Origin: Candidatus Hydrogenedens sp.
GTDB lineage: Bacteria; Hydrogenedentota; Hydrogenedentia; Hydrogenedentales; Hydrogenedentaceae
DNA length: 24,300 bases
NCBI GenBank assembly: GCA_049968235.1
Contig: JBMFRC010000032.1
Location: forward strand, 1-24,300
Direction: 5' to 3'
Part shown: piece after piece, positions 2,961-16,622 of the stretch
Numbering within the stretch: the stretch's first letter is position 1
Layout: each line of letters opens with the position of its first letter
Translations under genes and position numbers: made by a program
The notes under the pieces: generated by a model
The model's input: only the letters and a program-made list of their open reading frames with translations
What the model was told of the DNA's origin: nothing
Database searches by the model: none

Positions 2961-3386
2961 CTATGATTGTTTCGGTTTCTTTACACCATATTTGGAACGG
3001 CTTACCCAACGACCGGCATGCACTTTCTTCCCGCCTTCATCTTTAACACTGGCGGTTCCACCCATATCACCCATAGCATCTAAAACACCACGGATTAGAT
3101 GGTAACGGACACCCGGAAGGTCTTTTACACGACCACCACGAACCAATACTTGTGAGTGTTCCTGTAAATTATGACCTACACCCGGTATATAAACCGTTAC
3201 TTCATATCCGTTCTTTAGACGAACACGAGCCACTTTACGCAAAGCGGAATTGGGTTTCTTCGGCGTCATGGTATATACACGAGTGCATGTTCCCGAGGCT
3301 TGCGGACATGCTTTCAATGCCGGAGCTTTTGTCCGATTGGGTCTCGGTTTACGAGCACCTTTTAATAATTGACCTATCGTTGGCAA
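2961..3386 (-). CDS. rpsL: 30S ribosomal protein S12 (uS12), with a C-terminal insertion of about 17 aa
   Basis: [15 protein letters not shown]...[12 protein letters not shown]...GHNLQEHS...[14 protein letters not shown] is unmistakably S12. It is 141 aa versus about 124 aa in the E. coli and Bacillus forms. The extra residues ([21 protein letters not shown]) lie between the LDxxG motif and the SRSKYG tail. Confidence 0.95.
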
Positions 3387-3501
3387 TGATAATCCTCCTG
3401 TTCATTAAAACAGAATTATTCATTTTTTTCTTTATGGATAATTGATTTTTTGCTGTGGGCAAAATAGTATATCAAAAATAAAAATACGATTTCAACTTCG
3501 T

Positions 3502-3600
3502 ATTACTTATCCGTCTTTTTACTCACTTTCTTGGGTCGTGTCTTTCCATAAGAGCCACGCCAGATTTTACCGCGTTTTGTTCTACGGTCTCCTTTACCCA
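3502..3600 (-). CDS. 30S ribosomal protein bTHX (Thx / PSRP4 family), 32 aa, not in the ORF track
   Basis: Reverse complement of 3502..3600 reads ATG GGT AAA GGA GAC CGT AGA ACA AAA CGC GGT AAA ATC TGG CGT GGC..., giving [32 protein letters not shown]. This matches the Thermus Thx signature [25 protein letters not shown] nearly residue for residue. An AGGA sits about 14 nt upstream. It lies directly upstream of rpsL on the same strand. Confidence 0.8.
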
Positions 3601-3663
3601 TAAATATATATTTAATCCTTTGTTAAATTAGATAAAAAATTTTCGTTAGGGATAAAATGAAAA

Positions 3664-3692
3664 AGAGATAATATTATATACAATATTCAACT
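3664..3692 (-). promoter_or_regulatory. Sigma-70-like promoter for the bTHX-rpsL-rpsG-fusA-tuf operon
   Basis: The minus strand reads TTGACA (complement of 3687..3692), a 17-nt spacer, then TATATA (complement of 3664..3669), about 65 nt upstream of the bTHX ATG. Confidence 0.45.
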
Positions 3693-3710
3693 CAAATGTC
3701 AAATGTTATC

Positions 3711-5393
3711 TTAGAAATTCAAATTCTTTTTTAATTCCTGAATTTTGCGAATCTGCTCTTTTACTTCTTTGATGAGTTTTTCATATTCTACAAACGGATT
3801 CATAATATCCGGCAGGCAATCGATAAACTGTTTCATCATTTTTTTTCGCACACCTCTTGCACTAATATATACAACCTTATCATATATCCAGAAACTAACC
3901 CATATACTAATTAAAAATACAATACAAGAATGAATAATAAAATTTGCTCCTTGATAATAACCCAGGAAATAGCCCGGAATAATTTGCCAGAAAAAATATA
4001 CCAATACCGTATACATAGGTACATAAAACAATTCCACTAAAAAATAGTTTGACAGACACCTTGCCTTCTTTACGAGATAAGAATCCACTCGCTCTTTCAA
4101 GAAATCAACTCCACTCTTGAAAAAATTTGATACAAAATTTTCAGATATAGATGGAACAGCATCTTTGCGAATCTGGGCTTTATCGAGAGCAAAGGCAAGG
4201 TCATATTGAACATTTTCTAATTCACGATTACATTTGTTTGATATTTGCATTGCTATTTCATGAACAATCTCATTAATTTTCCTTTCAAAATAAGTCATCT
4301 CTTCTTTATGGGGTTGAACCATCTCTCTTACAATGTTCCATGGACGGATTACTTTAGAAAGGGTTCTCAAAACACCGGATAAACGATTCCGTATCTGTGC
4401 AAGTAATAAAAAAATACCATGTAATTCAAATGCAATTTCATCCTTCAACAGATGGTAGAAGGTCCCTGCCTCCTTTCCAAACTCTGTCCGAATGATTCGT
4501 GCCTGTTGTTTTACTAATTCTACTTTTTTCCTATCTATAAATTCTTTCATTTCATTGACTGCAGGCTCCGTTTCCTGCAAAAAATCATCTATTCTCGCTA
4601 TCATCTTTCCTATCAACCCATGAACATTTGCCGTTTTTATCTGACGGATTTTTGTATCGGTAAGTTGTTGGGCAAGGAAATTTTCTAACTTTGTAAAATC
4701 AAATTCATTTGTTTCCGTATCCTCCGATTTTGTTCCTAATTTCCTATTCAATGCACGAAGTGCATTTATACAAAAATAAGCAAGCGGTTCTATCCCATCC
4801 AATCTTAATCTCTTTAACCAGTCATCCATGATAGATGGAATTTCTGATGTCATCTTTGTTTCCACCAGAACAAAACCCCGTTCTTTACTCACTTCACGAA
4901 TGATACTCCATGTTGCTTCTTCAAGGTATTTATCTCCATTGCCACAAAGCAGGATAAGGTCACATTTTTCTATCATCTTCTTTGTAAAATTGCGATGCTC
5001 CTTAATAACAGTATCGGTATCAGGGGTATCAATAAGAACAATATTATCGAGAGCGGAGCGGGCATATAATTCGCATTCTCCCTTCAATTCCGAATACGGT
5101 TCCCAATCCGGAGGATAATAGATAATAGGTCTATTTGTGCAGGGTCTCATTTCTGATGTCCTTGCAATTTTATCGCCAGCAATAGCATTAATCAGTGTTG
5201 ATTTACCTACCCCTGAACCGCCTACAATTGCAACGATTAATAGAGCATCAATTTTACTACTTCTTTCTTTTATTTCTTTAATACCCCCTTTTAACTTCTC
5301 CGCTATCGGTAAGAAACCTTCCCAATTCCCTTTATAATCCGCTATCTCTTCCAATTGATGGATAATTTTTTCTAAGTTTGCTTTAGGGAACAT
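3711..5393 (-). CDS. Bacterial dynamin-like GTPase B (Dynamin_N-type G domain plus helical stalk plus C-terminal two-helix membrane hairpin)
   Basis: G1 is GGSGVGKST and G3 is DTPD. The G4-equivalent is TKMT (aligned to NKVD in the upstream paralogue). A long helical region follows, then two hydrophobic helices (LVELFYVPMYTVLVYFFWQII... and FIIHSCIVFLISIWVSFWIY) near the C-terminus. The GAGGAG Shine-Dalgarno overlaps the stop of the upstream GTPase, with a 12-nt gap. Confidence 0.8.
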   Translation of the reverse strand: MFPKANLEKIIHQLEEIADYKGNWEGFLPIAEKLKGGIKEIKERSSKIDALLIVAIVGGSGVGKSTLINAIAGDKIARTSEMRPCTNRPIIYYPPDWEPYSELKGECELYARSALDNIVLIDTPDTDTVIKEHRNFTKKMIEKCDLILLCGNGDKYLEEATWSIIREVSKERGFVLVETKMTSEIPSIMDDWLKRLRLDGIEPLAYFCINALRALNRKLGTKSEDTETNEFDFTKLENFLAQQLTDTKIRQIKTANVHGLIGKMIARIDDFLQETEPAVNEMKEFIDRKKVELVKQQARIIRTEFGKEAGTFYHLLKDEIAFELHGIFLLLAQIRNRLSGVLRTLSKVIRPWNIVREMVQPHKEEMTYFERKINEIVHEIAMQISNKCNRELENVQYDLAFALDKAQIRKDAVPSISENFVSNFFKSGVDFLKERVDSYLVKKARCLSNYFLVELFYVPMYTVLVYFFWQIIPGYFLGYYQGANFIIHSCIVFLISIWVSFWIYDKVVYISARGVRKKMMKQFIDCLPDIMNPFVEYEKLIKEVKEQIRKIQELKKNLNF

Positions 5394-5405
5394 CGTTCTC
5401 TCCTC

Positions 5406-7229
5406 TTATGATTTTTGCTCTTCTATAATCTCATTGTTCTGTAGGCTATCTATTTGCAATTGCTCTATATTTCCCTCTTGCGAAATAAATCCCCCATTAA
5501 AAATATTCCGAACTTCTTTATCAAATTCCTCTGCAAAACTTATATATTTATATATATCCTGTAAAACATACTGTAGAACTTCTTCCTTTAATATCTGCTG
5601 AAGTTCTCCCTGTTTCTCTATTATCCATTTTTCATAAAGTGAATTTATGCTCTTCTGGAATCTTTTATATTCAACAGTTTCAATAAATGCCGAACCTCCA
5701 AGCATTCCTCCTCCAGCTATTATTTCCGCCCAGGGTCCAACATATGGCATTCCCCAAAACATGGAAATCATACCCGCACCCAAAAGCAGAAAAGACATAA
5801 TTCGCTTGCCATAAAAGCCATTCAAATTCGGAGAATCTAAAAAATCGGCGACAATCTTTTCAATTTCTTTTTGTATCCATTCAGGTTTTACAGAGAGCGC
5901 GTTTTCCATTCGTGTAATGATTTTCATTTTTACTACATCTCGATTGTTATGTAATTCATGCAATCGTTTATTTATATTTTCATCTATGTAATCAATATCG
6001 GAACTAAATTCTAATTTCAGCAACCAATCCAAGAGTTCATTAAAACATTTTTCTATCATTTCATTATGTTTTTGTTTTATCTCTACTTCTGCCCCTTCTG
6101 TGCTTATTTCCAACTTCTTGATTTCACTTCGATATCCGGAAAAAATAGAGGTGGGGAATAAAATCAAGTATGTAAAATAACCAATATGTTTCCTTAACTC
6201 GTATTTAATTTCTTCTACTAACCGAATCCAGCGGAATGGGATAAACTCCCTACTGATAATGGTATTTTCCAGATAATCTTCACAGAATCTTACCTTTGAT
6301 AGGGAAATATCTAAAAGTTTTAAAAATTTATTCTTATACCATTGTCCAAATTTTTCTTGAAAACTACTTATGGTTTTTTCTAAGATTTTTACTTTTGTTT
6401 CCTGCACAGGGAAAGAATAAATATACTCCCTTAATTCGGGAGCAACTTCTGTCAGCGGTTTAATAGGAGCATTTAAATAATTTTCATTGTAAGGATATTT
6501 AGGAAAGTAAAAACGGGGCAGATTATCATCCATTCCTACTTTTTTCATAAATTCTCTTATCTGTTTGTCTGCAATTTGAAGTGCTTTGGGATTATCAATA
6601 TCAACCTTGTTCATCACAGGAATCACGATCTTCCCTTCTTCATAAGCATGTCGGAAAAATTTGATTACCGCATCATCCATATACTTAGAATCATTTGTAA
6701 CCGCAATAATAATATCCCCAGCGGATACAATTTTATCTGCTATCTCCCAATGTTCCTTCGCAATAGAATCAATATCCGGAGTATCTAAATACAAATAAGT
6801 ATTGGGGATAGATTTTTCTTCCTTAACTAAAAGAATATGATTCGGGAGGGAATCGCTAATTGCCTCTTCTTTACTTTTCATCTCTCTCGCTTCAAATTCA
6901 AGAAACATATTGTTATCCAAACATTGTTTCGCCTTCTGTTCAGAGGCAATAATAACAGGTCTTTTGGTCGCCGCAGCATAAGGGTCTGTTGCAGTTAATT
7001 CTTGCTTCATTAAAACATTTAATATAGTGGACTTCCCTGTATTGGTTCCTCCGGCTACAGCAACAATAAGGCATCCTTCCCTTTCTAAATGAGGAACAAG
7101 TTTCCCCAAAAATAATTTCTCCCACGCAGACAAATCTTCCCCGTTTAATACATTTAAATCCAATTCCATTATCTTATTCTTAAACCGCTTCCATACATCA
7201 GCAAACAGGTCTATCCAATTACTTTCCAT
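5406..7229 (-). CDS. Bacterial dynamin-like GTPase A (Dynamin_N-type G domain plus helical stalk plus membrane hairpin)
   Basis: G1 is GGTNTGKST, G3 is DTPD and G4 is NKVD, with dynamin-like spacing. At 607 aa it has a helical middle region and a hydrophobic paddle (IMSFLLLGAGMISMFWGMPYVGPWAEIIAGGGMLGG). An AGAGGGAG Shine-Dalgarno lies 5 nt upstream of the ATG at 7229. Confidence 0.8.
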   Translation of the reverse strand: MESNWIDLFADVWKRFKNKIMELDLNVLNGEDLSAWEKLFLGKLVPHLEREGCLIVAVAGGTNTGKSTILNVLMKQELTATDPYAAATKRPVIIASEQKAKQCLDNNMFLEFEAREMKSKEEAISDSLPNHILLVKEEKSIPNTYLYLDTPDIDSIAKEHWEIADKIVSAGDIIIAVTNDSKYMDDAVIKFFRHAYEEGKIVIPVMNKVDIDNPKALQIADKQIREFMKKVGMDDNLPRFYFPKYPYNENYLNAPIKPLTEVAPELREYIYSFPVQETKVKILEKTISSFQEKFGQWYKNKFLKLLDISLSKVRFCEDYLENTIISREFIPFRWIRLVEEIKYELRKHIGYFTYLILFPTSIFSGYRSEIKKLEISTEGAEVEIKQKHNEMIEKCFNELLDWLLKLEFSSDIDYIDENINKRLHELHNNRDVVKMKIITRMENALSVKPEWIQKEIEKIVADFLDSPNLNGFYGKRIMSFLLLGAGMISMFWGMPYVGPWAEIIAGGGMLGGSAFIETVEYKRFQKSINSLYEKWIIEKQGELQQILKEEVLQYVLQDIYKYISFAEEFDKEVRNIFNGGFISQEGNIEQLQIDSLQNNEIIEEQKS

Positions 7230-7293
7230 TCATACTCCCTCTTTTTTATGTCATAAAAACAGGCTCATAATTTTTTATGTAATATTCTTAAAC

Positions 7294-7944
7294 TCACACG
7301 TTCAATTTAGGGCAGGAAGCCCTTAACATTTTAATTACGAATTCATTGATTTGTTTTTCATCTTCGGGGTCCATCCCCACAAATTTAAGGCTTACTTTAT
7401 TTTCCTTCCCTGTAAATAACACGTGCGTTACTGAACCTAATAAGTGAAACCATTGTTCTTTCCCTGTAACAAAATGCCTCAGTGAAAAGAATACCTCTAC
7501 ACTTTCTCCTACTTCCAGAGGTTCTTCAATGCTAATTAACATTCCTCCCGCGCTAATATTATGAACAATCGCTCTAATCTTTCGTGGGTGAGCATGAGGC
7601 TTTATCTCCGCAGGTAAGTTAATGGGCATCCTCCAGAACTGACGCAGAAATATACTTGATAAACTTTCTGGAATAGATATAACAATTCCTTCTTCTGCGG
7701 AGTCAGAAACCTCAATAATTTCTGTCTGCAAAACAAGGCAACCCCGATTGCTACACAATTCAAGTGCTACCTGCATCCCTGAGAAAAGTTCATTGGAAAA
7801 TTTCGTCTGTGATATACGGATATAGCCCCGAGTAACGGAAATAATCGTTACAGGACATAACTTCCCTTCAAAACTCAATACACCGATTGTTCCTGTTTTC
7901 AATGTTTCCTGAAGAATCTGTTCTATCTCTTTTTTTCTGTCCAT
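7294..7944 (-). CDS. PilZ-domain c-di-GMP receptor (YcgR-like architecture: PilZN-type N-domain plus PilZ)
   Basis: The C-terminal half carries both PilZ motifs, RQFWR (RxxxR) followed about 25 aa later by NISAGG ((D/N)xSxGG). The protein is 216 aa. A 64-nt gap separates it from the first dynamin-like gene on the same strand. Confidence 0.7.
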   Translation of the reverse strand: MDRKKEIEQILQETLKTGTIGVLSFEGKLCPVTIISVTRGYIRISQTKFSNELFSGMQVALELCSNRGCLVLQTEIIEVSDSAEEGIVISIPESLSSIFLRQFWRMPINLPAEIKPHAHPRKIRAIVHNISAGGMLISIEEPLEVGESVEVFFSLRHFVTGKEQWFHLLGSVTHVLFTGKENKVSLKFVGMDPEDEKQINEFVIKMLRASCPKLNV

Positions 7945-8047
7945 CCTTTGTTAACCTTTTCAAACACAACTAATAATTACTTTTCTCAACAAAAAATCCA
8001 TTACAATAAGTTATACCGTAATACCTTGGATTTCATTTTAATCGAAA

Positions 8048-10681
8048 ATGTTAAAAAATAACAAAAAAGGAATATTTTTTTTGTCGCTATCAATGCTTAG
8101 CACAGGAATACCTGAATTTGACCGAATATTAAGAGGGCTAATTGCTGGAGATAATGTTGTTTTTCGAGGAAGTTCTATTGTAGATTACCGTAAGTTTGTA
8201 ATACCTTTTGTGCAACATGGACATGAAACAGCCCGTCCTGTCGTATATTTTAGATACGGGAAACATCAACCTTTATTAAAAGAATCTGAAGTATCTACAT
8301 ACGCAAATGTGGACCCGAATGAAGGATTTGAACCTTTCATCAGTCAGTTGCATCAGGTTATAAAAAATACAGAACGTCGTGCTTTTTATGTTTTTGACCG
8401 ATTATCAGACCTTTCCCTCACCTGGTTCAGTGATACAATGCTTTGTAATTTCTTTATGCTAACCTGCCCCTATTTATTTGACCGTGGCGATTTAGCATAT
8501 TTTTTCCTCGACCGTTCCCAACATACACCTGAATCCGTTACACCTATACAACAGACCGCACAAATCGTCATTGAATTGTATGACCACAATGATGACCTGT
8601 TTATTCGTCCCGTAAAGGTTCAACAGAGGCACTCCCCTTCCATGCATATGTTACATCTATGGCAAGATGGGAAAATGACCCCTATTACAGAAAGCCATAT
8701 TATGGCAAAGGTATTATCATCTATCCTCAGCACGACTCTTAGCCCGGGAGAAGGACCCACAGATATATGGAACCGTATTTTAGGAGAAGCCAAGTATGTT
8801 ATCCGTTTAGGGGACGAAAAGATTAAACAAGAACTGATGGAAATTCTCATCAAAATGATGATAACACGGGAAAAACGAATGACCGAACTATTCCTTCAAA
8901 ATTTCTCTTTAGAAGACCTTGTAGAAATAGGTAGGCGTGTTATTGGCACAGGAATGATAGGCGGAAAATCTGTAGGTATGTTACTGGCACAGGCAATATT
9001 ACGAAAAAGCAATCCCAAATGGAACCAAAAGTTAGAAAAACATGATAGTTTTTATGTTGGGTCCGATGTATATTATACCTTTCTCGTTCGTAACGGTTGT
9101 TGGTGGGCACGAGAACAACAAAAAGAGTTGGAAAGTTTTCTTCCCGGAGCAGAACGCATCCGCAGACGTATCATTACTGGGGAATTTCCCGAAGATATTG
9201 AAATGAAGTTTGAACAGATGCTTGAATATTTTGGTTCTTCACCTATCATTGTTCGTTCCAGCAGTTTATTGGAAGATAATTTCGGAAATTCCTTTGCCGG
9301 AAAATATGAAAGTGTATTTTGTGCCAATCAAGGTTCTACAAGGCAAAGACTGGAAGATTTCAAAGCGGCTGTTCGCACGGTATATGCCAGTACTGTAAGC
9401 GAAGAAGCGTTATATTATCGGAAACGGCGGGGACTTTTGGACAAAGATGAACAAATGGCTCTTTTAGTCCAACGCGTATCCGGATCCCAGCATGCACGAC
9501 TATATTTCCCGAATATTGCAGGGGTAGGTTTCTCATACAATCCCTATGTCTGGTCTGCGGAAATTGACCCTAAGGCAGGAATGTTACGTTTAGTATTTGG
9601 ATTGGGCACACGAGCGGTTGACCGTTCGGATGACGATTACACGAGAATCGTTGCTCTCAATGAACCTCTATTGCGGCCCGAAGGCTCTACCAAAGAACAG
9701 AAAAAATACTCCCAACAAAAAGTAGATGTTATTGATTTAGACGGGAACCGACTCGTTTCCATGCCCGTGCAGGAAATTGTTCCTCAATGTGAAGGGATTC
9801 CCTTAGAACTTTTTGTATCTCAGGATGTGGAAGCAGAACGATTCTATAAAGAACGCGGACAAAAAATGCCTCCTCAATGGAAAATCCGTTTTGATTCTCT
9901 CCTTACCGAAACCTCATTTGTAGAAGATATGCATGAGATTCTCATTACACTGGATAGGACATATCAGAACCCTGTAGATGTAGAATTTACCGCAAATTTT
10001 AAGAATAATAAAGATTTCTATATAGATATTGTTCAATGCAGACCTTTACAGGTCAGTGACCGTTCGGAACTCCTTTCAGAACCTGTTATTGAGGATAAGA
10101 CCAACCTAATTATTCAAACAGATGGTCCTATTATCGGAAGAAGCCGTTCTAATCAGGTACATCGAATTATCTATGTTGTCCCTCATACCTATGGAGAATT
10201 GCCAATATCTGAACGTTATGCTATTGCTCGTGCTATCGGCATCTTAAATCAAATACCTCCACTTATTACAGGCGACCCTATTGTGGTTCTTATAGGACCT
10301 GGACGTTGGGGAACCAGCGCACCTTCGTTAGGAGTATCCGTTAGTTTCTCTGAGATTAGTTCGGTCTCCTTCTTGTGTGAAATTGTTGCTATGAGAGAAG
10401 ACCTCACTCCAGATGTATCCTTGGGGACCCATTTTTTTAGCGAATTGGTAGAATCGGATTTGTTGTATTTCGTCCATTTTCCCGCTAAAGAAACTCATTA
10501 TTTCAATGAACAATTATTAACTCAACTGCCCAACAAATTAAAGGAAATATCAGCCGGATTGGAAAAATACGAAAACATTATTAAGGTATATGATTTTCTA
10601 TCTGATTCCGGAAAAACATGCCATATTTACGCAAATACTTTCGACCAGAAGCTGTTTTTATATCTCAATAATGAAGAATAA
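8048..10681 (+). CDS. Large fusion protein: degenerate KaiC/RecA-like N-terminal domain plus PEP-synthase/PPDK-type ATP-grasp nucleotide-binding domain (PPDK_N), with no recognisable phosphohistidine swivel domain
   Basis: The N-terminus reads TGIPEFDRILRGLIAGDNVVFRGSS...VVYFRYG, mimicking the KaiC/RadA TGIPxLDxxLxGG...LYVS layout but without a GxxGxGKT Walker A. Residues around 300-470 carry the PEP-utilising ATP-binding hallmarks GTGMIGGKSVGMLL and IIVRSSSLLEDNFGNSFAGKYESV. No GGRTSHAAI-type motif is present. The start codon is uncertain: there is no Shine-Dalgarno at 8048, and an alternative ATG near 8093 (MLSTGIPEF) exists. Confidence 0.6.
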   Translation: MLKNNKKGIFFLSLSMLSTGIPEFDRILRGLIAGDNVVFRGSSIVDYRKFVIPFVQHGHETARPVVYFRYGKHQPLLKESEVSTYANVDPNEGFEPFISQLHQVIKNTERRAFYVFDRLSDLSLTWFSDTMLCNFFMLTCPYLFDRGDLAYFFLDRSQHTPESVTPIQQTAQIVIELYDHNDDLFIRPVKVQQRHSPSMHMLHLWQDGKMTPITESHIMAKVLSSILSTTLSPGEGPTDIWNRILGEAKYVIRLGDEKIKQELMEILIKMMITREKRMTELFLQNFSLEDLVEIGRRVIGTGMIGGKSVGMLLAQAILRKSNPKWNQKLEKHDSFYVGSDVYYTFLVRNGCWWAREQQKELESFLPGAERIRRRIITGEFPEDIEMKFEQMLEYFGSSPIIVRSSSLLEDNFGNSFAGKYESVFCANQGSTRQRLEDFKAAVRTVYASTVSEEALYYRKRRGLLDKDEQMALLVQRVSGSQHARLYFPNIAGVGFSYNPYVWSAEIDPKAGMLRLVFGLGTRAVDRSDDDYTRIVALNEPLLRPEGSTKEQKKYSQQKVDVIDLDGNRLVSMPVQEIVPQCEGIPLELFVSQDVEAERFYKERGQKMPPQWKIRFDSLLTETSFVEDMHEILITLDRTYQNPVDVEFTANFKNNKDFYIDIVQCRPLQVSDRSELLSEPVIEDKTNLIIQTDGPIIGRSRSNQVHRIIYVVPHTYGELPISERYAIARAIGILNQIPPLITGDPIVVLIGPGRWGTSAPSLGVSVSFSEISSVSFLCEIVAMREDLTPDVSLGTHFFSELVESDLLYFVHFPAKETHYFNEQLLTQLPNKLKEISAGLEKYENIIKVYDFLSDSGKTCHIYANTFDQKLFLYLNNEE

Positions 10682-10699
10682 TATCAATAGAATTATTCG

Positions 10700-11446
10700 C
10701 TAATTGGGCTTGATTTTACCAAGGTCAATAGTAGATGCGGGAGGAATTTTTATTTCTTTGATTTCCAATATCATTCCGCGTTCGGTTTTTAGACGAAGGT
10801 TATACATACCGGCAGGAATAGGTTTGAAATGGATATTGCCTGCTTCATCGGTATGCCCATCACAGGGCCACCAGGGACCCAATTTCGGGTGAAACATCAT
10901 CAAGCCTACATTCTCATTTTTTACAGGCTGGTCATCTTTATCAAACAATTGTAATTCAATAATACTGGCTTCCAGCATCAATACTTGCATATCTTCAAGG
11001 GAATCCGCATCGGTAGGTGGAATCTCAAAATAGTTGTTGGGAAAATAATGAAGGATAGGGTCCCAGGCACGGATAAACACACCTTTGTTCTTAGGAATTT
11101 GAATGGTGCTAATCCCATCGGGACCGCTTAAATTTCCGCGGGCAATAGGTTCATCAAAGGCATTCGGTTTTTCAGTCGCAATACCCGCCATATTTTCCAG
11201 AGGCATACCTGCACTGTTTATAATCATGATTTTCCCGAAAACCCAGGAACTGGAAGCCGATGTATTTGGAACCTGTGTTTGACTTTGTACCACCTCCGTT
11301 TGAGAAGAATTCCCTACGGATGTTTTTTTAGGTTCGGATACTGTCGGCTGAGGTGCAGTATTTTTCTGACTGCACGAATTGAATACCAGAAACAATAAAA
11401 TGAGCCATACATTTATATATTTATTGTGCGGTTGTTTCATAGGCAT
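10700..11446 (-). CDS. Lipoprotein of unknown function (possible carboxypeptidase-regulatory/transthyretin-like fold)
   Basis: It has an N-terminal signal peptide with a lipobox-like LVFNSC and a low-complexity S/T/Q-rich linker. The C-terminal beta-rich segment is GMYNLRLKTERGMILEIKEIK. Its 5' end overlaps the ABC exporter's 3' end by 20-26 nt, indicating co-transcription. The start is ambiguous between 11446 and 11440. Confidence 0.55.
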   Translation of the reverse strand: MPMKQPHNKYINVWLILLFLVFNSCSQKNTAPQPTVSEPKKTSVGNSSQTEVVQSQTQVPNTSASSSWVFGKIMIINSAGMPLENMAGIATEKPNAFDEPIARGNLSGPDGISTIQIPKNKGVFIRAWDPILHYFPNNYFEIPPTDADSLEDMQVLMLEASIIELQLFDKDDQPVKNENVGLMMFHPKLGPWWPCDGHTDEAGNIHFKPIPAGMYNLRLKTERGMILEIKEIKIPPASTIDLGKIKPN

Positions 11447-13403
11447 TACGGAATTGATGTTGGTAAAGTTGATAGTAAATTCCCTGGTGTTTTAATAACT
11501 GTTCATGAGAACCCTGTTCTACAATTTTTCCACGGTCCAGCACTAAAATACGGTCTGCATTCATAATTGTAGATAGACGATGTGCAATGATAATACTGGT
11601 TCGCCCTTTCAGGAAAGTCGTCAGGGCTTCCTGTATATATTTTTCACTTTCAGAATCCAGATTGGAGGTTGCCTCATCGAGAAGTAATACTTCGGGATTT
11701 TTTAGAATAGCACGGGCTAAAGCGAGGCGTTGTCTCTGCCCGCCGGAGAGTAATTGTCCAAACTCCCCCAGATTGCTATCCAATCCTTTAGGCATTTGAG
11801 CGACAAACTCCTTTGCATGTGCCATAACAAGAGCCTGCTCAATTTGTTCATCTGTTATACCTGTATTTCCCCCCGTCAGATTATCACGGACTGAACCTGA
11901 AAAAAGAATTGTTTCCTGAGTAACAATTGCAATTTGCTTTCGCAGGCTCTCTAATGTAACCTTGCGAATATCCGTATCATCAAAATAAATAGTGCCTTCT
12001 TTTACATCATAAAAACGTGGGATAAGTTTAACGAGTGTCGTTTTACCTGAACCACTGGGACCAACCAGTGCAACCCTCTCCCCTCGACGGATAGAAAAGT
12101 TTAAGTTATCAAGGACAATTTTTTTACCATCATAAGAAAAGGAAATATTTTCAAACCTTATTTCTTTAGATAACGGTTCTAATGAAATAGCATGAGGGGC
12201 ATCCTGAATATCGGGTTTGAGGTCCAGATATTCAAAAACACGCTCCGCACTGGCAACACTCGTTTGTATCAGATTGTTTACCGTAGATAACTTACGGACA
12301 GGGTCAAGAATCATTGCCAGTGCAAGATATACCTGTAATAAGTCGCCCATATCCAGCCGATAAGTAATCACACGATAGCCACTGAATAGGATAAAACCAG
12401 AGAAACCTACCACAAGGATAAATTCTGTAATGGGTTCCGTTGCGGAATCTGCTTTAACCATTTTTCGTAAAAACCTCCGCAATCGATTTGCCTCGACATC
12501 ATATCGCTGTTTCAAAAATTCCTCCATTTGAAAACCTTTAATGATAAGAATACCCCGGGTTGTTTCATTAATAAGCGAAGCAAGGTCAGCAACTTTCATA
12601 AGTGAACGACGAACACTTTTGCGAACATACAGCCCTAACTGAATTAACGCATAACCCAGGGGGGGTAAAACACATATCCCTACAAGTGTTAACCACGGGT
12701 CCACACTAATAGCAACGGCAAGAAATGTTAATGCCTTGAAAGGTTCTCGAAGCACTTTAATAAAGGCGTTGGATAAACCACGATTCACCATAAATATATC
12801 ATTGCTAAAACGAGCAACCACATCCCCTGACGAATGGGATTCAAAAAAACCTAATGATTGGGTCATTATATTCTGATACATCTTCCGGGATAAATCAACA
12901 GAAACAAAGGCACCCACAGAACCTGCAAAATATTCCTGAAAAAAACGAGCACAACCACTGATAAAAGTAAGTAGGATAACAATAATAATGGCAATAGACA
13001 AAGCAAATAATTTGTGGGCTCTCATTTTTTCCACGAATAGAAGGAATGTTTTATCCCATTCTGCTGGCGATGTATTCAACCATTTATGAATTTGTGTATC
13101 CCATTTCTGAACTTCATGTGCGTATTTAATGGCAGGGTCCTCTTCCGGATTAAAAACTGTTTTTTTCTGCATTTCAGGAGGTTGATATAGAGTAAGTTTT
13201 ACAGCAGTTCCTAAACCTACTATCATCGTTCCGAAAGAAAAAGCAATAACAAGGGAAAGAGCAATAGATAAAAGGAGTCGTGTCTTATATATCAGTGCAT
13301 ACCGGATAAGACGGGCATAAACTTTCCACCCGGAACTCCTTCCTCGATGTTCAGACAATAGAGAATCAACTATAGGCTCTGTATTTACAGGTAAAGGTTC
13401 CAT
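11421..13403 (-). CDS. ABC exporter, fused permease-ATPase (MsbA/lipid-A-exporter-like)
   Basis: Six predicted N-terminal TM helices, then an NBD with Walker A GPSGSGKTT, the signature LSGGQRQRLALARA and Walker B LLLDEATSNLD. There is an unusual insertion of about 75 aa between TM1 and TM2 (LYQPPEMQKK...WDKTF). Confidence 0.9.
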   Translation of the reverse strand: MEPLPVNTEPIVDSLLSEHRGRSSGWKVYARLIRYALIYKTRLLLSIALSLVIAFSFGTMIVGLGTAVKLTLYQPPEMQKKTVFNPEEDPAIKYAHEVQKWDTQIHKWLNTSPAEWDKTFLLFVEKMRAHKLFALSIAIIIVILLTFISGCARFFQEYFAGSVGAFVSVDLSRKMYQNIMTQSLGFFESHSSGDVVARFSNDIFMVNRGLSNAFIKVLREPFKALTFLAVAISVDPWLTLVGICVLPPLGYALIQLGLYVRKSVRRSLMKVADLASLINETTRGILIIKGFQMEEFLKQRYDVEANRLRRFLRKMVKADSATEPITEFILVVGFSGFILFSGYRVITYRLDMGDLLQVYLALAMILDPVRKLSTVNNLIQTSVASAERVFEYLDLKPDIQDAPHAISLEPLSKEIRFENISFSYDGKKIVLDNLNFSIRRGERVALVGPSGSGKTTLVKLIPRFYDVKEGTIYFDDTDIRKVTLESLRKQIAIVTQETILFSGSVRDNLTGGNTGITDEQIEQALVMAHAKEFVAQMPKGLDSNLGEFGQLLSGGQRQRLALARAILKNPEVLLLDEATSNLDSESEKYIQEALTTFLKGRTSIIIAHRLSTIMNADRILVLDRGKIVEQGSHEQLLKHQGIYYQLYQHQFRNAYETTAQ

Positions 13404-14465: not shown

Positions 14466-16319
14466 CTAATCAATATCCAGTTCTTCCTCATCCAGCCCTT
14501 CCTCTGTAATTTCTTCACCTGGGAGCGATTCTTCTTCTGTTTCTTTCATAACAGACACTTTTACAATTCTCCCCATAAAACGATTTAAAATTGATTGAAT
14601 CTTCGGGTCCTGCTTTATTTCCTGTGCCAGTTCCTGTGGAACAAGGTCATTTAACAATCCCCTACGTGGAGATTGCACAGAAGATTCGTTTTGTTTTATT
14701 TCTCGATGAACAATTTGTATTTGCTTACCCGGAAAACCAAGTTCAGTAACCGTTTCGAAAATATACCGTTTTGTCTCTTCCTTCGCAAGGCATGAAAGTG
14801 CATTATTATCCGAAGGATTAACATGTATAACTACTGTTTCCGTTATTGCATCATAATGAATCTGCACATCTTTCAAAAACAACGATAATGTTGCCTTTTT
14901 TTTACTAAGTTCACGAAGCACCTTTTTAGTAAAATTTTTATCTGAATCACTCCGTTTCACGGATAAAGTACCGGATGGAGAAAGTTCCGTAGTGGGTGTA
15001 GATACTCCCGATATTGAGGATAACGATGTGGATTTTATATTTTTTTCTACCTCTGTTTTTTCAATAGAGGGGGTTTTTATCTTTTTTTTTTCCGAGGTAT
15101 TCTCCTGCTGAGAATATGCGGAACGATTTTCCTGAACCGTTTTTATCTTTGAAAATTGGATAGAGTCCTCAAGTTGCATTAATTTTTCCAGAATAGACTC
15201 AATAGATAATTCAGCACCTACCTTACAATTTTTAATAAAGAATGCTTCTAAGGCGGTTCGGTGAGAAAGTTGCGAGGTAAAATTTTGATTTAATTCCGCT
15301 AATTGCTCAACAAACTTCATAAGTTGAATTATTGTAAACTTTGCAGATTGTTCTTTTAATCGTTTTACATCTTCTTCCGGAAGGAAAAAGATATCCTCCT
15401 GTTGAGTTGTTTTAAGAATAAGTAAGTTTCTAATGTGTCGAATAAACTCCTCCACAAACTGATTCAGGTCTTTTCCGGAAGTTGAAACCTCATCAATTAT
15501 CGAGAGAACCTTAGATATATCTTTATCCTGTAACGCATATACCAACTGGTCAATCTTATCTGTCTCTATAAGCCCCAGAACATCCTGAACATCTTTATAG
15601 GTAATTTCCCCTTCACAATAGGTCATTAGTTGGTCAAGAATACTTTCCGCATCGCGAACCCCACCATCCGCAGAGCGAGCGATTGCAAACAACGCCTCTT
15701 GGGTTGCTTTCCTCTTTTCCGCTTTTACAATCTGTTCCAATAATTTTACAATATCCGGCACAGCAACTCTTCGGAAATCATACCTCTGACAGCGGGAAAT
15801 AATCGTTGCAGGGATTTTGTGGGCTTCTGTTGTGGCAAGAATAAAAACCGCATGAGCCGGAGGTTCTTCCAAAGTTTTCAACAGAGCATTAAAAGCTGCA
15901 GAAGATAACTGATGAACTTCGTCAATGATATATACCTTATATCGTGCATGTGCAGGAGCCAGACGAACCGCTTCGCGAATTTCACGGATATTATCTACAC
16001 TATTATTAGAAGCCCCATCAATTTCCTGAACATCCAAATGAGTACCCTTACTTATTTCTATACAGTTATCACACTTATCGCAAGGCTCGGGAACAGGCTT
16101 ATCCGAACTTTGACAATTTAATGCTTTAGCAAGAATACGAGCAGTAGTCGTCTTCCCAATTCCTCGCGAACCAATAAATAATAACGCATGATGTATCCGC
16201 CCAGAAGAAACAGCATTTTTTAGTGTTCGGGTAATATGTTCCTGTCCAACGACCTCATCAAATTGTTGAGGTCTCCATTTTCGAGCAAGAACATGATATA
16301 CATCATTCGGTTTCGGCAT
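14466..16319 (-). CDS. dnaX: DNA polymerase III subunits tau/gamma
   Basis: MPKPNDVYHVLARKWRPQQFDEVVGQEHI...GSRGIGKTTTARILAKALNC with a Zn-finger CDKCDNC, clamp-loader AAA+ motifs and an acidic C-terminus. The start is set at the ATG at 16319. The track extension to 16391 begins at a GTG and runs into the SRP RNA gene. Confidence 0.95.
   Translation of the reverse strand: MPKPNDVYHVLARKWRPQQFDEVVGQEHITRTLKNAVSSGRIHHALLFIGSRGIGKTTTARILAKALNCQSSDKPVPEPCDKCDNCIEISKGTHLDVQEIDGASNNSVDNIREIREAVRLAPAHARYKVYIIDEVHQLSSAAFNALLKTLEEPPAHAVFILATTEAHKIPATIISRCQRYDFRRVAVPDIVKLLEQIVKAEKRKATQEALFAIARSADGGVRDAESILDQLMTYCEGEITYKDVQDVLGLIETDKIDQLVYALQDKDISKVLSIIDEVSTSGKDLNQFVEEFIRHIRNLLILKTTQQEDIFFLPEEDVKRLKEQSAKFTIIQLMKFVEQLAELNQNFTSQLSHRTALEAFFIKNCKVGAELSIESILEKLMQLEDSIQFSKIKTVQENRSAYSQQENTSEKKKIKTPSIEKTEVEKNIKSTSLSSISGVSTPTTELSPSGTLSVKRSDSDKNFTKKVLRELSKKKATLSLFLKDVQIHYDAITETVVIHVNPSDNNALSCLAKEETKRYIFETVTELGFPGKQIQIVHREIKQNESSVQSPRRGLLNDLVPQELAQEIKQDPKIQSILNRFMGRIVKVSVMKETEEESLPGEEITEEGLDEEELDID
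15081..15091 (-). other. Candidate programmed -1 frameshift / transcriptional-slippage site in dnaX (mRNA G GAA AAA AAA AAG AUA)
   Basis: Ten consecutive T on the plus strand (15082..15091) give A10 followed by G in the dnaX mRNA, containing the A AAA AAG heptamer used by E. coli dnaX. It falls at residue about 411-413 of 617, the canonical gamma/tau boundary. The -1 frame stops after 6 codons (UGA at 15063..15061) and the other shifted frame stops after 1 codon. Confidence 0.5.
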
Positions 16320-16349
16320 AAATATATCCCTGCCATTTATGTAAAAAGT

Positions 16350-16622
16350 GCTCGCGCACCCACCTTCGAACGATACGCCCAGAACGACCACGGAGCAGTT
16401 AGCTCGGGCCCGGCGACCCTACAGCACACAGACAGAATCAACTACGGCTGCTTCCTTCCGGACCTGACCGGGTTTGTTGCCTGCCTGTTGAGTAGGACCA
16501 AGCCGTCAACACCACTTACTCCGCGCCAGCTAAAGGACATACCGCCCTCGGGAGGGAATTCAGCCTCGCTAAAGCGGATTTGCGAGTTCAGGAACGCCGC
16601 TTCGTTCCCACCTAGCGCGAGC
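16350..16622 (-). ncRNA. ffs: Signal recognition particle RNA, long Bacillus-type with Alu domain (about 273 nt)
   Basis: The minus strand carries the universally conserved domain IV sequence GGUCAGGUCCGGAAGGAAGCAGCC. It also has blocks near-identical to B. subtilis scRNA (UAAGUGGUGUUGACG, AAUCCGCU..GAAUUCCCUCCCGAGG, GGGCCCGAGCUAACUGCU). The 5' GCUCGCGC pairs with the 3' GCGCGAGC to close the terminal helix. The region is a GC-rich island in AT-rich DNA, sits directly upstream of dnaX (classic synteny), and is preceded by a consensus promoter. Confidence 0.85.

What the first reader, a model, noticed from the sequence alone, without database searches (positions are those of the whole stretch)
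3711..7944. PilZ + tandem membrane-anchored dynamin-like GTPase operon
Two paralogous dynamin-family GTPases of 607 and 560 aa are encoded back to back with a 12-nt gap. The Shine-Dalgarno of the second overlaps the stop of the first, which implies translational coupling. Each ends in a two-helix hydrophobic hairpin, the bacterial DLP membrane paddle. A PilZ c-di-GMP receptor sits 64 nt upstream on the same strand. Tandem DLP pairs are known (Campylobacter DLP1/2, Mycobacterium IniA/IniC, LeoA/LeoBC; the last is reported as the Eleos anti-phage system). To my knowledge, a DLP pair that appears co-transcribed with a dedicated c-di-GMP sensor has not been characterised. This would be a second-messenger-gated membrane remodelling or defence module. 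Its position directly upstream of the str operon promoter also deserves attention.
Basis: partly seen in the sequence, partly recalled or inferred. Interest (0 to 1): 0.7.

Follow-up and report, generated by a model that had tools for sequence, protein, structure and literature searches.

The report
Dynamin-like GTPase pair beside PilZ gene
This is an ordinary, native pair of bacterial dynamin-like membrane GTPases found across the phylum Hydrogenedentota; the c-di-GMP-binding PilZ gene upstream is a neighbour in only one small clade and has not been shown to control the pair.

Summary
On the minus strand lie a 216-aa PilZ protein (7944..7294), a 607-aa GTPase (DLP-A, 7229..5406) and a 560-aa GTPase (DLP-B, 5393..3711). 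The gaps are 64 nt and 12 nt, and a GAGGAG ribosome-binding site abuts the first GTPase's stop codon.

Pfam Dynamin_N hits and AlphaFold models place both GTPases in the dynamin superfamily, of the BDLP/mitofusin type. Each has a hydrophobic helical hairpin near, but not at, the C-terminus.

The source is a Candidatus Hydrogenedens MAG. DLP-B follows DLP-A in 60 of 61 evaluable Hydrogenedentota loci, usually with overlapping reading frames and among housekeeping genes. The pair is therefore a core heterotypic BDLP pair, not a defence island.

The PilZ protein has intact c-di-GMP-binding motifs. It sits next to the pair only in the Hydrogenedens-level clade. One subclade has split it from the pair with both kept intact, and its nearest out-group relatives have no DLP neighbours.

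Co-transcription in this genome is plausible: no terminator or promoter was found in the 64-nt gap. A dedicated c-di-GMP-gated module is not supported, though it is not excluded. The str operon link is conserved synteny with separate conserved promoters, and a Thx gene lies in between.

The parts
7294..7944 (-). Two-domain PilZ protein of 216 aa. The N-terminal ~96 residues belong to no known family. The C-terminal PilZ domain spans residues 100-204.
   Evidence: Pfam PilZ E=4.6e-15, 56 bits against a cut-off of 22.5. The N-terminal domain has no Pfam hit even at E<=10. There are 16 orthologues at 49-100% identity.
7543..7644 (-). c-di-GMP-binding motifs of the PilZ domain: RQFWR (residues 101-105) and NISAGG (residues 129-134).
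   Evidence: A regex and an alignment show both motifs invariant in all 16 orthologues.
8035..8064 (-). Weak promoter-like site (TTGTTA-18-TAAAAT, 9 of 12 matches) upstream of PilZ, in the region shared with the divergent PPDK_N-like gene.
   Evidence: Consensus scan only. The match is at chance level.
7230..7293 (-). The 64-nt PilZ/DLP-A spacer. It holds an AGAGGGAG ribosome-binding site, with no terminator-like and no promoter-like site.
   Evidence: In orthologous loci the gap is 22-90 nt.
5406..7229 (-). DLP-A, a 607-aa bacterial dynamin-like protein.
6501..7070 (-). DLP-A G domain (about residues 54-243). G1 is GGTNTGKS, G2 is T88, G3 is DTPD and G4 is NKVD.
   Evidence: Motif conservation across 26 homologues. 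The alignment to IniA places its DTPG against DTPD here.
5670..5804 (-). DLP-A hydrophobic, Gly-rich helical hairpin (about residues 476-520) at the helix-loop-helix 467-492/500-555.
   Evidence: Kyte-Doolittle maximum 1.6 here and up to 2.2 in homologues. Secondary structure.
5394..5405 (-). The 12-nt DLP-A/DLP-B junction, with a GAGGAG Shine-Dalgarno site abutting the TAA stop.
   Evidence: In relatives the two ORFs mostly overlap by 10-35 nt.
3711..5393 (-). DLP-B, a 560-aa bacterial dynamin-like protein and paralogue of DLP-A.
   Evidence: Pfam Dynamin_N 45.9 bits. The AlphaFold2 model has mean pLDDT 84.1. All top 50 Foldseek PDB hits are dynamin superfamily: BDLP 1.4e-11, IniA 1.2e-9, Cj-DLP1/2 5e-9, LeoA 3e-7.
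4764..5240 (-). DLP-B G domain (about residues 52-210). G1 is GGSGVGKS, G2 is T86, G3 is DTPD and G4 is degenerate (TKMT).
3864..4046 (-). DLP-B two-helix hydrophobic hairpin (about residues 450-473 and 481-510).
   Evidence: Kyte-Doolittle maxima 1.6 and 2.25, conserved in 32 homologues. Helices 450-477 and 483-525 in the model.
3673..3702 (-). Boundary of the unit: a perfect TTGACA-18-TATAAT promoter 8 nt after the DLP-B stop. It drives Thx (3601..3503), and a second promoter at 3495..3466 precedes rpsL.
   Evidence: Both promoters are conserved in 7 loci, including distant L005 and L006.

Best explanation
The core of the locus is a native, phylum-wide, translationally coupled pair of bacterial dynamin-like proteins of the BDLP/mitofusin type.

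Both proteins share one architecture: two N-terminal helices, a G domain, a long helical neck and trunk, a hydrophobic helical hairpin at the tip, and a returning C-terminal helix.

By analogy with characterised pairs (Cj-DLP1/2, IniA/IniC, DynA/DynB), the two proteins most likely assemble into a heterotypic complex on the cytoplasmic membrane. That complex would use nucleotide binding and hydrolysis to tether, fuse or repair membrane. This step is inferred.

In the Hydrogenedens-level clade only, a two-domain PilZ protein gene lies directly upstream. It has intact c-di-GMP-binding motifs. In this genome it is probably transcribed with the pair, because no terminator or promoter lies in the 64-nt gap. 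This step is also inferred.

PilZ is not an obligatory component of the system. At most it is a lineage-specific regulatory add-on, and it may be no more than an inherited neighbour.
For: Fold:
- Pfam Dynamin_N is above cut-off for both proteins.
- The AlphaFold2 models are confident, with mean pLDDT 80.7 and 84.1.
- The best structural matches are all dynamin superfamily, with full-length alignments of about 650 columns.

Hairpin:
- The hydrophobic hairpin is conserved in 26 and 32 homologues respectively.

Pairing:
- DLP-B follows DLP-A in 60 of 61 evaluable Hydrogenedentota loci.
- The projected spacing is mostly -10 to -35 nt.
- Here the gap is 12 nt with a Shine-Dalgarno site at the stop codon.

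Native, housekeeping context:
- GC3 is 0.30, the same as the neighbours.
- Neighbours across the phylum are GHMP kinase, ABC1 kinase, the str operon and similar genes.

PilZ:
- The motifs are invariant.
- Adjacency to the pair was seen directly in 8 lineages of the clade. Two of these have a changed flank: L083 lacks the str operon and L082 lacks PPDK.

PilZ is dispensable as a neighbour:
- None was found next to the pair in L005-L081.
- A monophyletic subclade (P0197, P0198, P0200) has PPDK-PilZ without the pair.
- In the same samples, FGGY|DLP-A-DLP-B-Thx-S12 lies on another contig.
Against: - No experiment exists for any member of this family.
- Sequence-only searches rank Era/EngA P-loops above dynamins, so the dynamin assignment rests on Pfam plus predicted folds.
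- The G3 motif is DTPD, not DxxG. The G4 Asp is not conserved, so GTP specificity and the catalytic mechanism are uncertain.
- Heterodimerisation was not modelled.
- PilZ-DLP-A adjacency is ancestral in the clade and survived two flank rearrangements. This is mild evidence that PilZ is more than a bystander.
- The split-subclade argument assumes that contigs from the same samples belong to one organism.
Confidence: 0.75

Rival explanations
1. PilZ, DLP-A and DLP-B form one dedicated three-gene module. c-di-GMP-bound PilZ binds the DLP complex and gates membrane remodelling.
For: - All three genes are on the same strand with a 64-nt gap. There is no terminator or promoter-like site between PilZ and DLP-A.
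- The c-di-GMP-binding motifs are intact.
- Adjacency is ancestral in the clade. It is kept in L082 and L083 although one flank changed in each.
- Gaps are short, 22-90 nt, in all adjacent cases.
- A functional link between a dynamin-like GTPase and c-di-GMP signalling exists in E. coli (RdcA/RdcB activating DgcE; PMC6510439, PMC13463826), although there the signal flows the other way.
Against: - PilZ is absent beside the pair in all 77 loci outside the clade, L005-L081.
- One subclade separated PilZ from the pair, and both stayed intact with motifs conserved.
- PilZ stays with the PPDK_N-like gene in more contexts than with the DLPs.
- The nearest out-group full-length relatives of the PilZ protein are not next to DLPs.
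- No interaction evidence exists.
Confidence: 0.2
2. The PilZ protein is functionally tied to the divergently transcribed 877-aa PPDK_N-like enzyme (8048..10681, + strand), or is a free-standing receptor. Its position next to the DLP pair is incidental.
For: - The PPDK(-)/PilZ(+) divergent pair is kept in the window, L002-L004, L083, L085-87, L091, L092, L097 and L098. It is broken only in L082.
- The pair persists where the DLPs have left.
Against: - Divergent neighbours in close relatives can also reflect plain inheritance.
- L082 keeps PilZ-DLP-A without PPDK.
- No mechanism is known by which PilZ would act on a PEP-utilising-type enzyme.
Confidence: 0.15
3. The pair is an Eleos-like (LeoA/LeoBC) anti-phage defence system.
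For: - PADLOC LeoA and LeoBC models give hits at E of about 1e-9. These include a match of DLP-B residues 233-420 to the LeoBC stalk region.
- LeoA (4aur) is among the structural matches, E=3e-7.
Against: - The scores are only 33-36 bits and the matches are partial. BDLP, IniA, Cj-DLP and the mitofusins match better.
- The pair is conserved in nearly every Hydrogenedentota locus examined, in housekeeping contexts and with native composition.
- No defence-island neighbours are present.
Confidence: 0.04
4. The two proteins are Era/EngA/RsgA-type ribosome-associated GTPases, functionally linked to the adjacent Thx-rpsL-rpsG-fusA operon. This is what source annotations such as '50S ribosome-binding GTPase' imply.
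For: - MMR_HSR1 is above cut-off. The NCBIfam and PDB sequence hits are to Der and Era P-loops.
- Adjacency to the str operon is conserved in L001-L006, L088 and L098.
Against: - Those matches cover only 35-50 residues around the P-loop.
- Most of the phylum has the pair away from the str operon.
- The Thx and rpsL promoters are independent and conserved.
Confidence: 0.03

Closest known systems
Campylobacter jejuni Cj-DLP1/Cj-DLP2 heterotypic BDLP pair (PDB 5OWV, 5OXF; PMC6104087)
   Same: - Side-by-side paralogous DLP genes in one operon.
- About 25% identity between the partners.
- G domain plus helical neck and trunk.
- Full-length Foldseek matches, E=5e-9 to 1e-7.
   Different: - Only 11-15% sequence identity.
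- The proteins here are shorter.
- Each carries a markedly hydrophobic hairpin.
- G3 is DTPD.
- No equivalent of the DLP1 assembly domain was tested.
- The heterotetramer is not shown for this pair.
Nostoc punctiforme BDLP1 (2J68, 2J69) and the mitofusins/Fzo1
   Same: - A membrane-binding element at the trunk tip, followed by a returning C-terminal helix. This corresponds to the paddle in BDLP and the transmembrane hairpin in mitofusins.
   Different: - The hairpin here is intermediate. DLP-B is TM-like (Kyte-Doolittle 2.25), while DLP-A is Gly-rich and only moderately hydrophobic.
- BDLP1 was studied as a homo-oligomer.
- The canonical DxxG motif is present in those proteins.
Mycobacterial IniA/IniC (6J72)
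   Same: - A tandem DLP pair in an operon.
- The G3/G4 region aligns directly.
   Different: - IniA has DTPG and TKTD.
- The iniBAC operon is stress-induced and includes IniB.
- c-di-GMP acts on iniBAC through a transcription factor (HpoR, PMC13413693), not through a neighbouring PilZ.
E. coli RdcA (YjdA)/RdcB-DgcE system (PMC6510439, PMC13463826)
   Same: The only characterised functional link found between a bacterial dynamin-like GTPase and c-di-GMP signalling.
   Different: - The direction is opposite. There the DLP senses GTP and activates a diguanylate cyclase.
- RdcB is not a DLP.
- RdcA is soluble.
- No PilZ is involved.
Eleos (LeoA/LeoBC) defence system
   Same: A dynamin-like tandem pair, with weak PADLOC hits.
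   Different: - The hits are partial, 33-36 bits.
- The pair here is core and chromosomal, in a housekeeping context.
YcgR-type two-domain PilZ receptors
   Same: - Size of about 215-250 aa.
- An N-terminal domain plus a C-terminal PilZ domain with RxxxR and D/NxSxxG motifs.
   Different: - The N-terminal domain gives no hit to the Pfam PilZN/YcgR models.
- No flagellar context.

Membership tests
Dynamin superfamily / bacterial dynamin-like proteins | Large G domain recognised by the Dynamin_N profile | tested here: met
   PF00350 scores 43.6 bits (DLP-A, profile positions 1-167 of 168) and 45.9 bits (DLP-B), against a cut-off of 27.
Dynamin superfamily / bacterial dynamin-like proteins | Canonical G1-G4 motifs (GxxxxGKS/T, T, DxxG, N/TKxD) | tested here: inconclusive
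   G1 and the G2 Thr are invariant. G3 is D-T-P-D in 26 of 26 and 32 of 32 homologues, with Asp in place of Gly. The G4 Asp is not conserved.
Dynamin superfamily / bacterial dynamin-like proteins | Helical neck (BSE/HD1) and trunk (stalk/HD2) bundles built from N-terminal, middle and C-terminal helices | tested here: met
   [not shown]
Dynamin superfamily / bacterial dynamin-like proteins | Membrane-binding element at the trunk tip | tested here: met
   A conserved hydrophobic helix-loop-helix lies at residues 476-520 (DLP-A) and 450-510 (DLP-B). Actual membrane insertion was not tested.
Dynamin superfamily / bacterial dynamin-like proteins | Nucleotide-dependent oligomerisation and membrane remodelling | not testable with these tools
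   Requires biochemistry.
Heterotypic BDLP operon pair | Two paralogous DLP genes side by side, with the arrangement conserved | tested here: met
   60 of 61 evaluable loci have the pair, and the ORFs mostly overlap.
Heterotypic BDLP operon pair | Physical heteromer | not testable with these tools
   No multimer prediction tool was available.
PilZ c-di-GMP receptor | PilZ domain with RxxxR and (D/N)xSxxG motifs | tested here: met
   PF07238 scores 56 bits against a cut-off of 22.5. RQFWR and NISAGG are invariant in 16 orthologues.
PilZ c-di-GMP receptor | c-di-GMP binding | not testable with these tools
   Requires ITC, DRaCALA or a similar binding assay.
YcgR-like (PilZN + PilZ) | N-terminal PilZN/YcgR domain | tested here: not met
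   No Pfam hit for residues 1-99 at E<=10. hhalign of the N-terminal against the C-terminal domain gives 4% probability.
Dedicated PilZ-DLP-DLP module (proposed) | Single transcription unit | tested here: inconclusive
   There is no terminator-like or promoter-like site in the 64-nt gap. This is a consensus scan only. The split lineage L088 has a TATAAT box upstream of DLP-A.
Dedicated PilZ-DLP-DLP module (proposed) | Co-occurrence of PilZ with the pair across genomes | tested here: not met
   Adjacency is present only in the Hydrogenedens-level clade, in 8 lineages. It was lost in a 3-lineage subclade and is absent from the other 77 loci, L005-L081.
Eleos (LeoA/LeoBC) | Full-length matches to the LeoA and LeoBC profiles | tested here: not met
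   Scores are 33-36 bits and the matches are partial. The LeoA match covers only residues 49-75.
Eleos (LeoA/LeoBC) | Defence-island or variable genomic context | tested here: not met
   Neighbours are housekeeping genes, the pair is conserved across the phylum, and GC3 is native.
Era/EngA/RsgA TRAFAC ribosome GTPases | Family-level profile score and accessory domains (KH, second G domain, OB fold) | tested here: not met
   NCBIfam scores are 28-32 bits against cut-offs of 237-307, and the matches are limited to the P-loop. The folds lack those domains.

The most novel reading that the evidence does not exclude
In the Hydrogenedens lineage, a clade-specific two-domain PilZ receptor was recruited upstream of the phylum-wide BDLP pair. 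It couples c-di-GMP levels directly to a dynamin-like membrane-remodelling machine. This would be the first post-translational c-di-GMP input into a bacterial dynamin. In addition, the family's invariant DTPD G3 motif and non-conserved G4 Asp would mark a mechanistically divergent, and possibly not GTP-specific, branch of BDLPs.
Probability: 0.18. Interest if true: 0.6.

Novelty: new member of a known kind. Interest (0 to 1): 0.3.

Why it matters
Bacterial dynamin-like pairs are a known kind of system. [quoted passage not shown] This locus adds an uncharacterised, phylum-wide subfamily from the uncultured Hydrogenedentota, with weaker relatives in Planctomycetota and Bdellovibrionota.

Two things give it modest value:
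- The subfamily has an invariant DTPD in place of the canonical DxxG. That makes a clean test case for how the switch-II glycine contributes to dynamin catalysis.
- In one clade a PilZ gene sits immediately upstream. This offers a cheap, testable hypothesis for c-di-GMP input into a dynamin-like machine.

The comparative evidence gathered here lowers the prior for the second idea rather than raising it.

Tried and rejected
- Sequence-only searches against the PDB, using a DLP-A profile and the single DLP-B sequence, returned only P-loop matches led by EngA and Era. They could not classify the proteins. Classification needed predicted folds.
- NCBIfam gave no family-level assignment.
- An HMM built from 4 PilZ orthologues, plus a PilZ motif regex, was run over all ORFs of 81 loci. 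It found PilZ next to the pair only in L001-L004. One unrelated stand-alone PilZ 3.9 kb away in L022 served as a positive control.
- Clustering of neighbour ORFs looked for a conserved third component. It found only housekeeping genes, such as GHMP kinase in 16 loci and ABC1 kinase.
- hhalign of the PilZ N-terminal domain against its C-terminal domain, and a lenient Pfam scan, gave no identification of the N-terminal domain.
- Literature searches for PilZ plus dynamin-like, Hydrogenedentota plus dynamin, and Eleos/LeoA found no direct precedent.
- A horizontal-transfer or island reading was rejected on GC3.
- I planned a Pfam scan of all flanking ORFs in alignment mode.

Full report
**1. Observation**

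The window is an entire 24.3-kb contig of a Candidatus Hydrogenedens sp. MAG. The same genes lie on GCA_049969095.1.

Three minus-strand ORFs are present exactly as described:
- a PilZ protein, 7944..7294, 216 aa;
- DLP-A, 7229..5406, 607 aa;
- DLP-B, 5393..3711, 560 aa.

The PilZ/DLP-A gap is 64 nt. The DLP-A/DLP-B gap is 12 nt and reads TAAGAGGAGagaacgATG, so the ribosome-binding site starts at the stop codon.

Pfam gives PilZ at E=4.6e-15. It gives Dynamin_N above its gathering score for both GTPases, and MMR_HSR1 also passes. The two GTPases share 25% identity over the G domain, E=2e-15.

- The hydrophobic hairpins are subterminal, at residues ~476-520 of 607 and ~450-510 of 560. Each is followed by a 50-90-residue helix.
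- A 32-aa Thx gene with its own promoter lies between DLP-B and rpsL.

**2. Are they dynamins?**

Sequence searches alone are ambiguous. NCBIfam and PDB sequence searches return only 35-50-residue P-loop matches, led by Der and Era.

AlphaFold2 models built on 26 and 32 homologues are confident, with mean pLDDT 80.7 and 84.1. Both models show the same layout:
- two N-terminal helices;
- a G domain;
- a long helical region;
- a helix-loop-helix that coincides with the hydrophobic segment;
- a final helix.

For DLP-B, all top 50 Foldseek PDB hits are dynamin-superfamily proteins aligned over about 650 columns. They include BDLP 2j69 (1.4e-11), IniA (1.2e-9), Cj-DLP1/2 (5e-9), Drp1 and LeoA (3e-7).

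It is not met. Both proteins are BDLP/mitofusin-type dynamin-like proteins.

A family-specific peculiarity is the G3 motif. It is D-T-P-D in every homologue examined, 26 of 26 and 32 of 32, where IniA aligns DTPG. The guanine-specifying Asp of G4 is also not conserved.

**3. The pair is a conserved core feature of the phylum**

Of these, 550 encode a relative. The 80 best loci are nearly all Hydrogenedentota. Some of those MAGs are labelled Nitrospirales. A weaker tail comes from Planctomycetota and Bdellovibrionales.

DLP-B follows DLP-A in 60 of 61 evaluable loci (L001-L069). The projected spacing is mostly -10 to -35 nt, so the ORFs overlap. Two loci carry a ~1.3-kb insertion.

Neighbours elsewhere in the phylum are housekeeping genes:
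- GHMP kinase, in 16 loci;
- ABC1 kinase;
- a zinc alcohol dehydrogenase-family protein (ADH_N/ADH_zinc_N);
- a glycosyltransferase.

In the window, GC3 of the DLP genes is 0.30, the same as dnaX, the ABC transporter and ccsA.

PADLOC LeoA and LeoBC hits are partial and weak, at 33-36 bits.

This is the signature of a native heterotypic BDLP pair. Paired DLP genes within operons are the rule in bacteria (PMC6104087). It is not the signature of a mobile defence system.

**4. PilZ**

The protein carries RQFWR (residues 101-105) and NISAGG (129-134). Both are invariant in 16 orthologues at 49-100% identity. So are a KPHAHP motif and four cysteines. The N-terminal ~96 residues match no Pfam family and do not resemble the PilZ domain.

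*Synteny outside the clade.* A PilZ gene beside the pair exists only in the Hydrogenedens-level clade. None was found in L005-L081, either with an orthologue HMM or with a PilZ motif regex. The regex did recover an unrelated PilZ 3.9 kb away in L022.

*Synteny inside the clade.* The ancestral block is PPDK_N-like(-) | PilZ | DLP-A-DLP-B | Thx-rpsL. Each junction has been broken at least once, except DLP-A/DLP-B:
- L083 lost the str operon side.
- L082 lost the PPDK side.
- A monophyletic subclade (P0197, P0198, P0200) keeps PPDK-PilZ but has unrelated genes downstream (L085-87, L091, L092).
- In the same two samples as L085 and L086, FGGY(-) | DLP-A-DLP-B-Thx-S12-S7-fusA lies on other contigs, L088 and L089.

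PilZ in the split lineages keeps every conserved residue.

*Adjacent cases.* Direct adjacency was seen in eight lineages: the window, L002-L004, L082, L083, L097 and L098.

*Wider relatives.* An exhaustive HMMER scan found about 40 more distant, full-length, two-domain relatives at 23-34% identity. The three nearest sit beside permeases, beside amidase and ProRS genes, or beside a secreted protein. None is beside a DLP.

*Conclusion on PilZ.* The adjacency is ancestral to one small clade and mostly retained. That is compatible with a lineage-specific functional recruitment. It is equally compatible with inherited gene order, and PilZ is not a required part of the DLP system.

**5. Transcription**

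No terminator-like hairpin and no promoter-like site of 9 of 12 matches or better lies between PilZ and DLP-A. A weak promoter-like site precedes PilZ at 8064..8035. Co-transcription of the three genes is therefore plausible here, but it is not demonstrated.

Eight nucleotides after the DLP-B stop there is a perfect TTGACA-18-TATAAT at 3702..3673, ahead of Thx. A TTGAAA-18-TATACT site at 3495..3466 precedes rpsL. Both promoters are conserved in seven loci, including the distant L005 and L006.

The str-operon adjacency is therefore conserved synteny that runs deeper than the PilZ adjacency. The transcription units are separate. No terminator lies between them, so read-through into Thx is possible.

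**6. Mechanism**

*Shown:*
- dynamin-like folds (predicted);
- a conserved hydrophobic tip hairpin;
- obligate pairing, with gene spacing that fits translational coupling;
- intact PilZ motifs.

*Inferred:*
- DLP-A and DLP-B form a heteromer at the cytoplasmic membrane. They carry out nucleotide-driven tethering, fusion or repair, as shown for Cj-DLP1/2, IniA and DynA.
- DLP-B has a TM-like hairpin (Kyte-Doolittle 2.25) and may be the permanent anchor. DLP-A has a Gly-rich, less hydrophobic hairpin and may act more like a paddle.

*Speculative, about 0.2:* c-di-GMP-bound PilZ modulates the complex in Hydrogenedens.

The only characterised links between c-di-GMP and dynamin-like proteins found in the literature work differently:
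- E. coli RdcA/RdcB activates the cyclase DgcE (PMC6510439, PMC13463826).
- Mycobacterial HpoR controls iniBAC transcription (PMC13413693).

**7. Verdict**

This is a real but ordinary BDLP pair: a new, uncharacterised, phylum-wide subfamily with a non-canonical G3 motif. The PilZ-gated-module interpretation is only partly supported. Adjacency and probable co-transcription hold in one clade, while co-occurrence across genomes fails. The defence and ribosome-GTPase readings are disfavoured.

Interest is 0.3. Novelty: new member of a known kind.

Noticed in passing
window 3503-3601 (-), promoters 3673-3702 and 3466-3495 (-): A 32-aa ribosomal protein Thx gene (Pfam Thx, E=1.6e-13) lies between DLP-B and rpsL. 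It is preceded by a perfect TTGACA-18-TATAAT promoter 8 nt after the DLP-B stop. Both this promoter and the rpsL promoter are conserved in 7 loci. No terminator separates DLP-B from Thx.
   Followed up: yes
window 6766-6777 (DLP-A residues 149-152) and 5019-5030 (DLP-B residues 122-125): The G3 motif is D-T-P-D in all 58 homologues examined, with Asp replacing the canonical Gly of DxxG. IniA aligns DTPG at this position. The G4 Asp is not conserved in either paralogue family, so nucleotide specificity and the switch-II mechanism may differ from canonical dynamins.
   Followed up: partly
window 7294-7944 (-): The PilZ protein has four invariant cysteines: C38 and C210 in Cys-Pro dipeptides, plus C71 and C77. 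It also has an invariant KPHAHP between the two c-di-GMP motifs. These could form a metal, redox or haem-type site. The N-terminal ~96-residue domain matches no known family.
   Followed up: partly
window 8048-10681 (+): An 877-aa protein has a PPDK_N (PEP-utilising, ATP-grasp) domain only at residues 303-674 and unassigned N- and C-terminal regions. It is the most stable neighbour of the PilZ gene, as a divergent pair kept in all PilZ contexts examined except L082. Its only PDB sequence match is PEP synthase, E=6e-4.
   Followed up: partly
window 10700-13403 (-); L057 11322-14100; L063 8190-8720: An ABC exporter (ABC_membrane+ABC_tran, 660 aa) overlaps by 26 nt a 248-aa probable lipoprotein (N-terminal ...LVFNSC, no Pfam family). 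Homologues of the lipoprotein lie immediately downstream of the DLP pair, in convergent orientation, in distant loci L057 and L063. L057 also has the ABC exporter beyond it. This may be a recurrent neighbour of the pair.
   Followed up: partly
window 2961-3386 (-): rpsL starts with TTG after an AGGAGG site. It encodes a 141-aa S12 with an insertion of roughly 15-20 residues (…[23 protein letters not shown]…) before the conserved C-terminal [11 protein letters not shown]. The insertion is conserved at 85-99% identity in related loci.
   Followed up: no
window 16352-16620 (-): A bacterial large SRP RNA (Rfam RF01854, 172.8 bits) overlaps the first 40 nt of the longest dnaX ORF (14466..16391, GTG start). 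The real dnaX start is probably further downstream.
   Followed up: no
L005 7118-7540 (+): In the closest out-group that still has the pair next to the str operon, the upstream same-strand gene encodes a bacterial PH-domain (bPH_2) protein instead of PilZ. It lies 428 nt from DLP-A.
   Followed up: no
L003, L005, L017, L020, L023, L030, L031 and others (record titles): Many GTDB MAGs titled 'uncultured Nitrospirales' or 'Nitrospiraceae' carry loci collinear with Hydrogenedentota, including the DLP pair and the str operon at 85-94% S12 identity. One is titled Bathyarchaeia (L058). These are probably mislabelled or contaminated bins.
   Followed up: no
L070-L081: Planctomycetota and Bdellovibrionales relatives match DLP-A at 30-39% identity over the G domain. 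They occur both as pairs (L070, L075, L076, L080) and apparently as single genes (L071-74, L077-79, L081).
   Followed up: no
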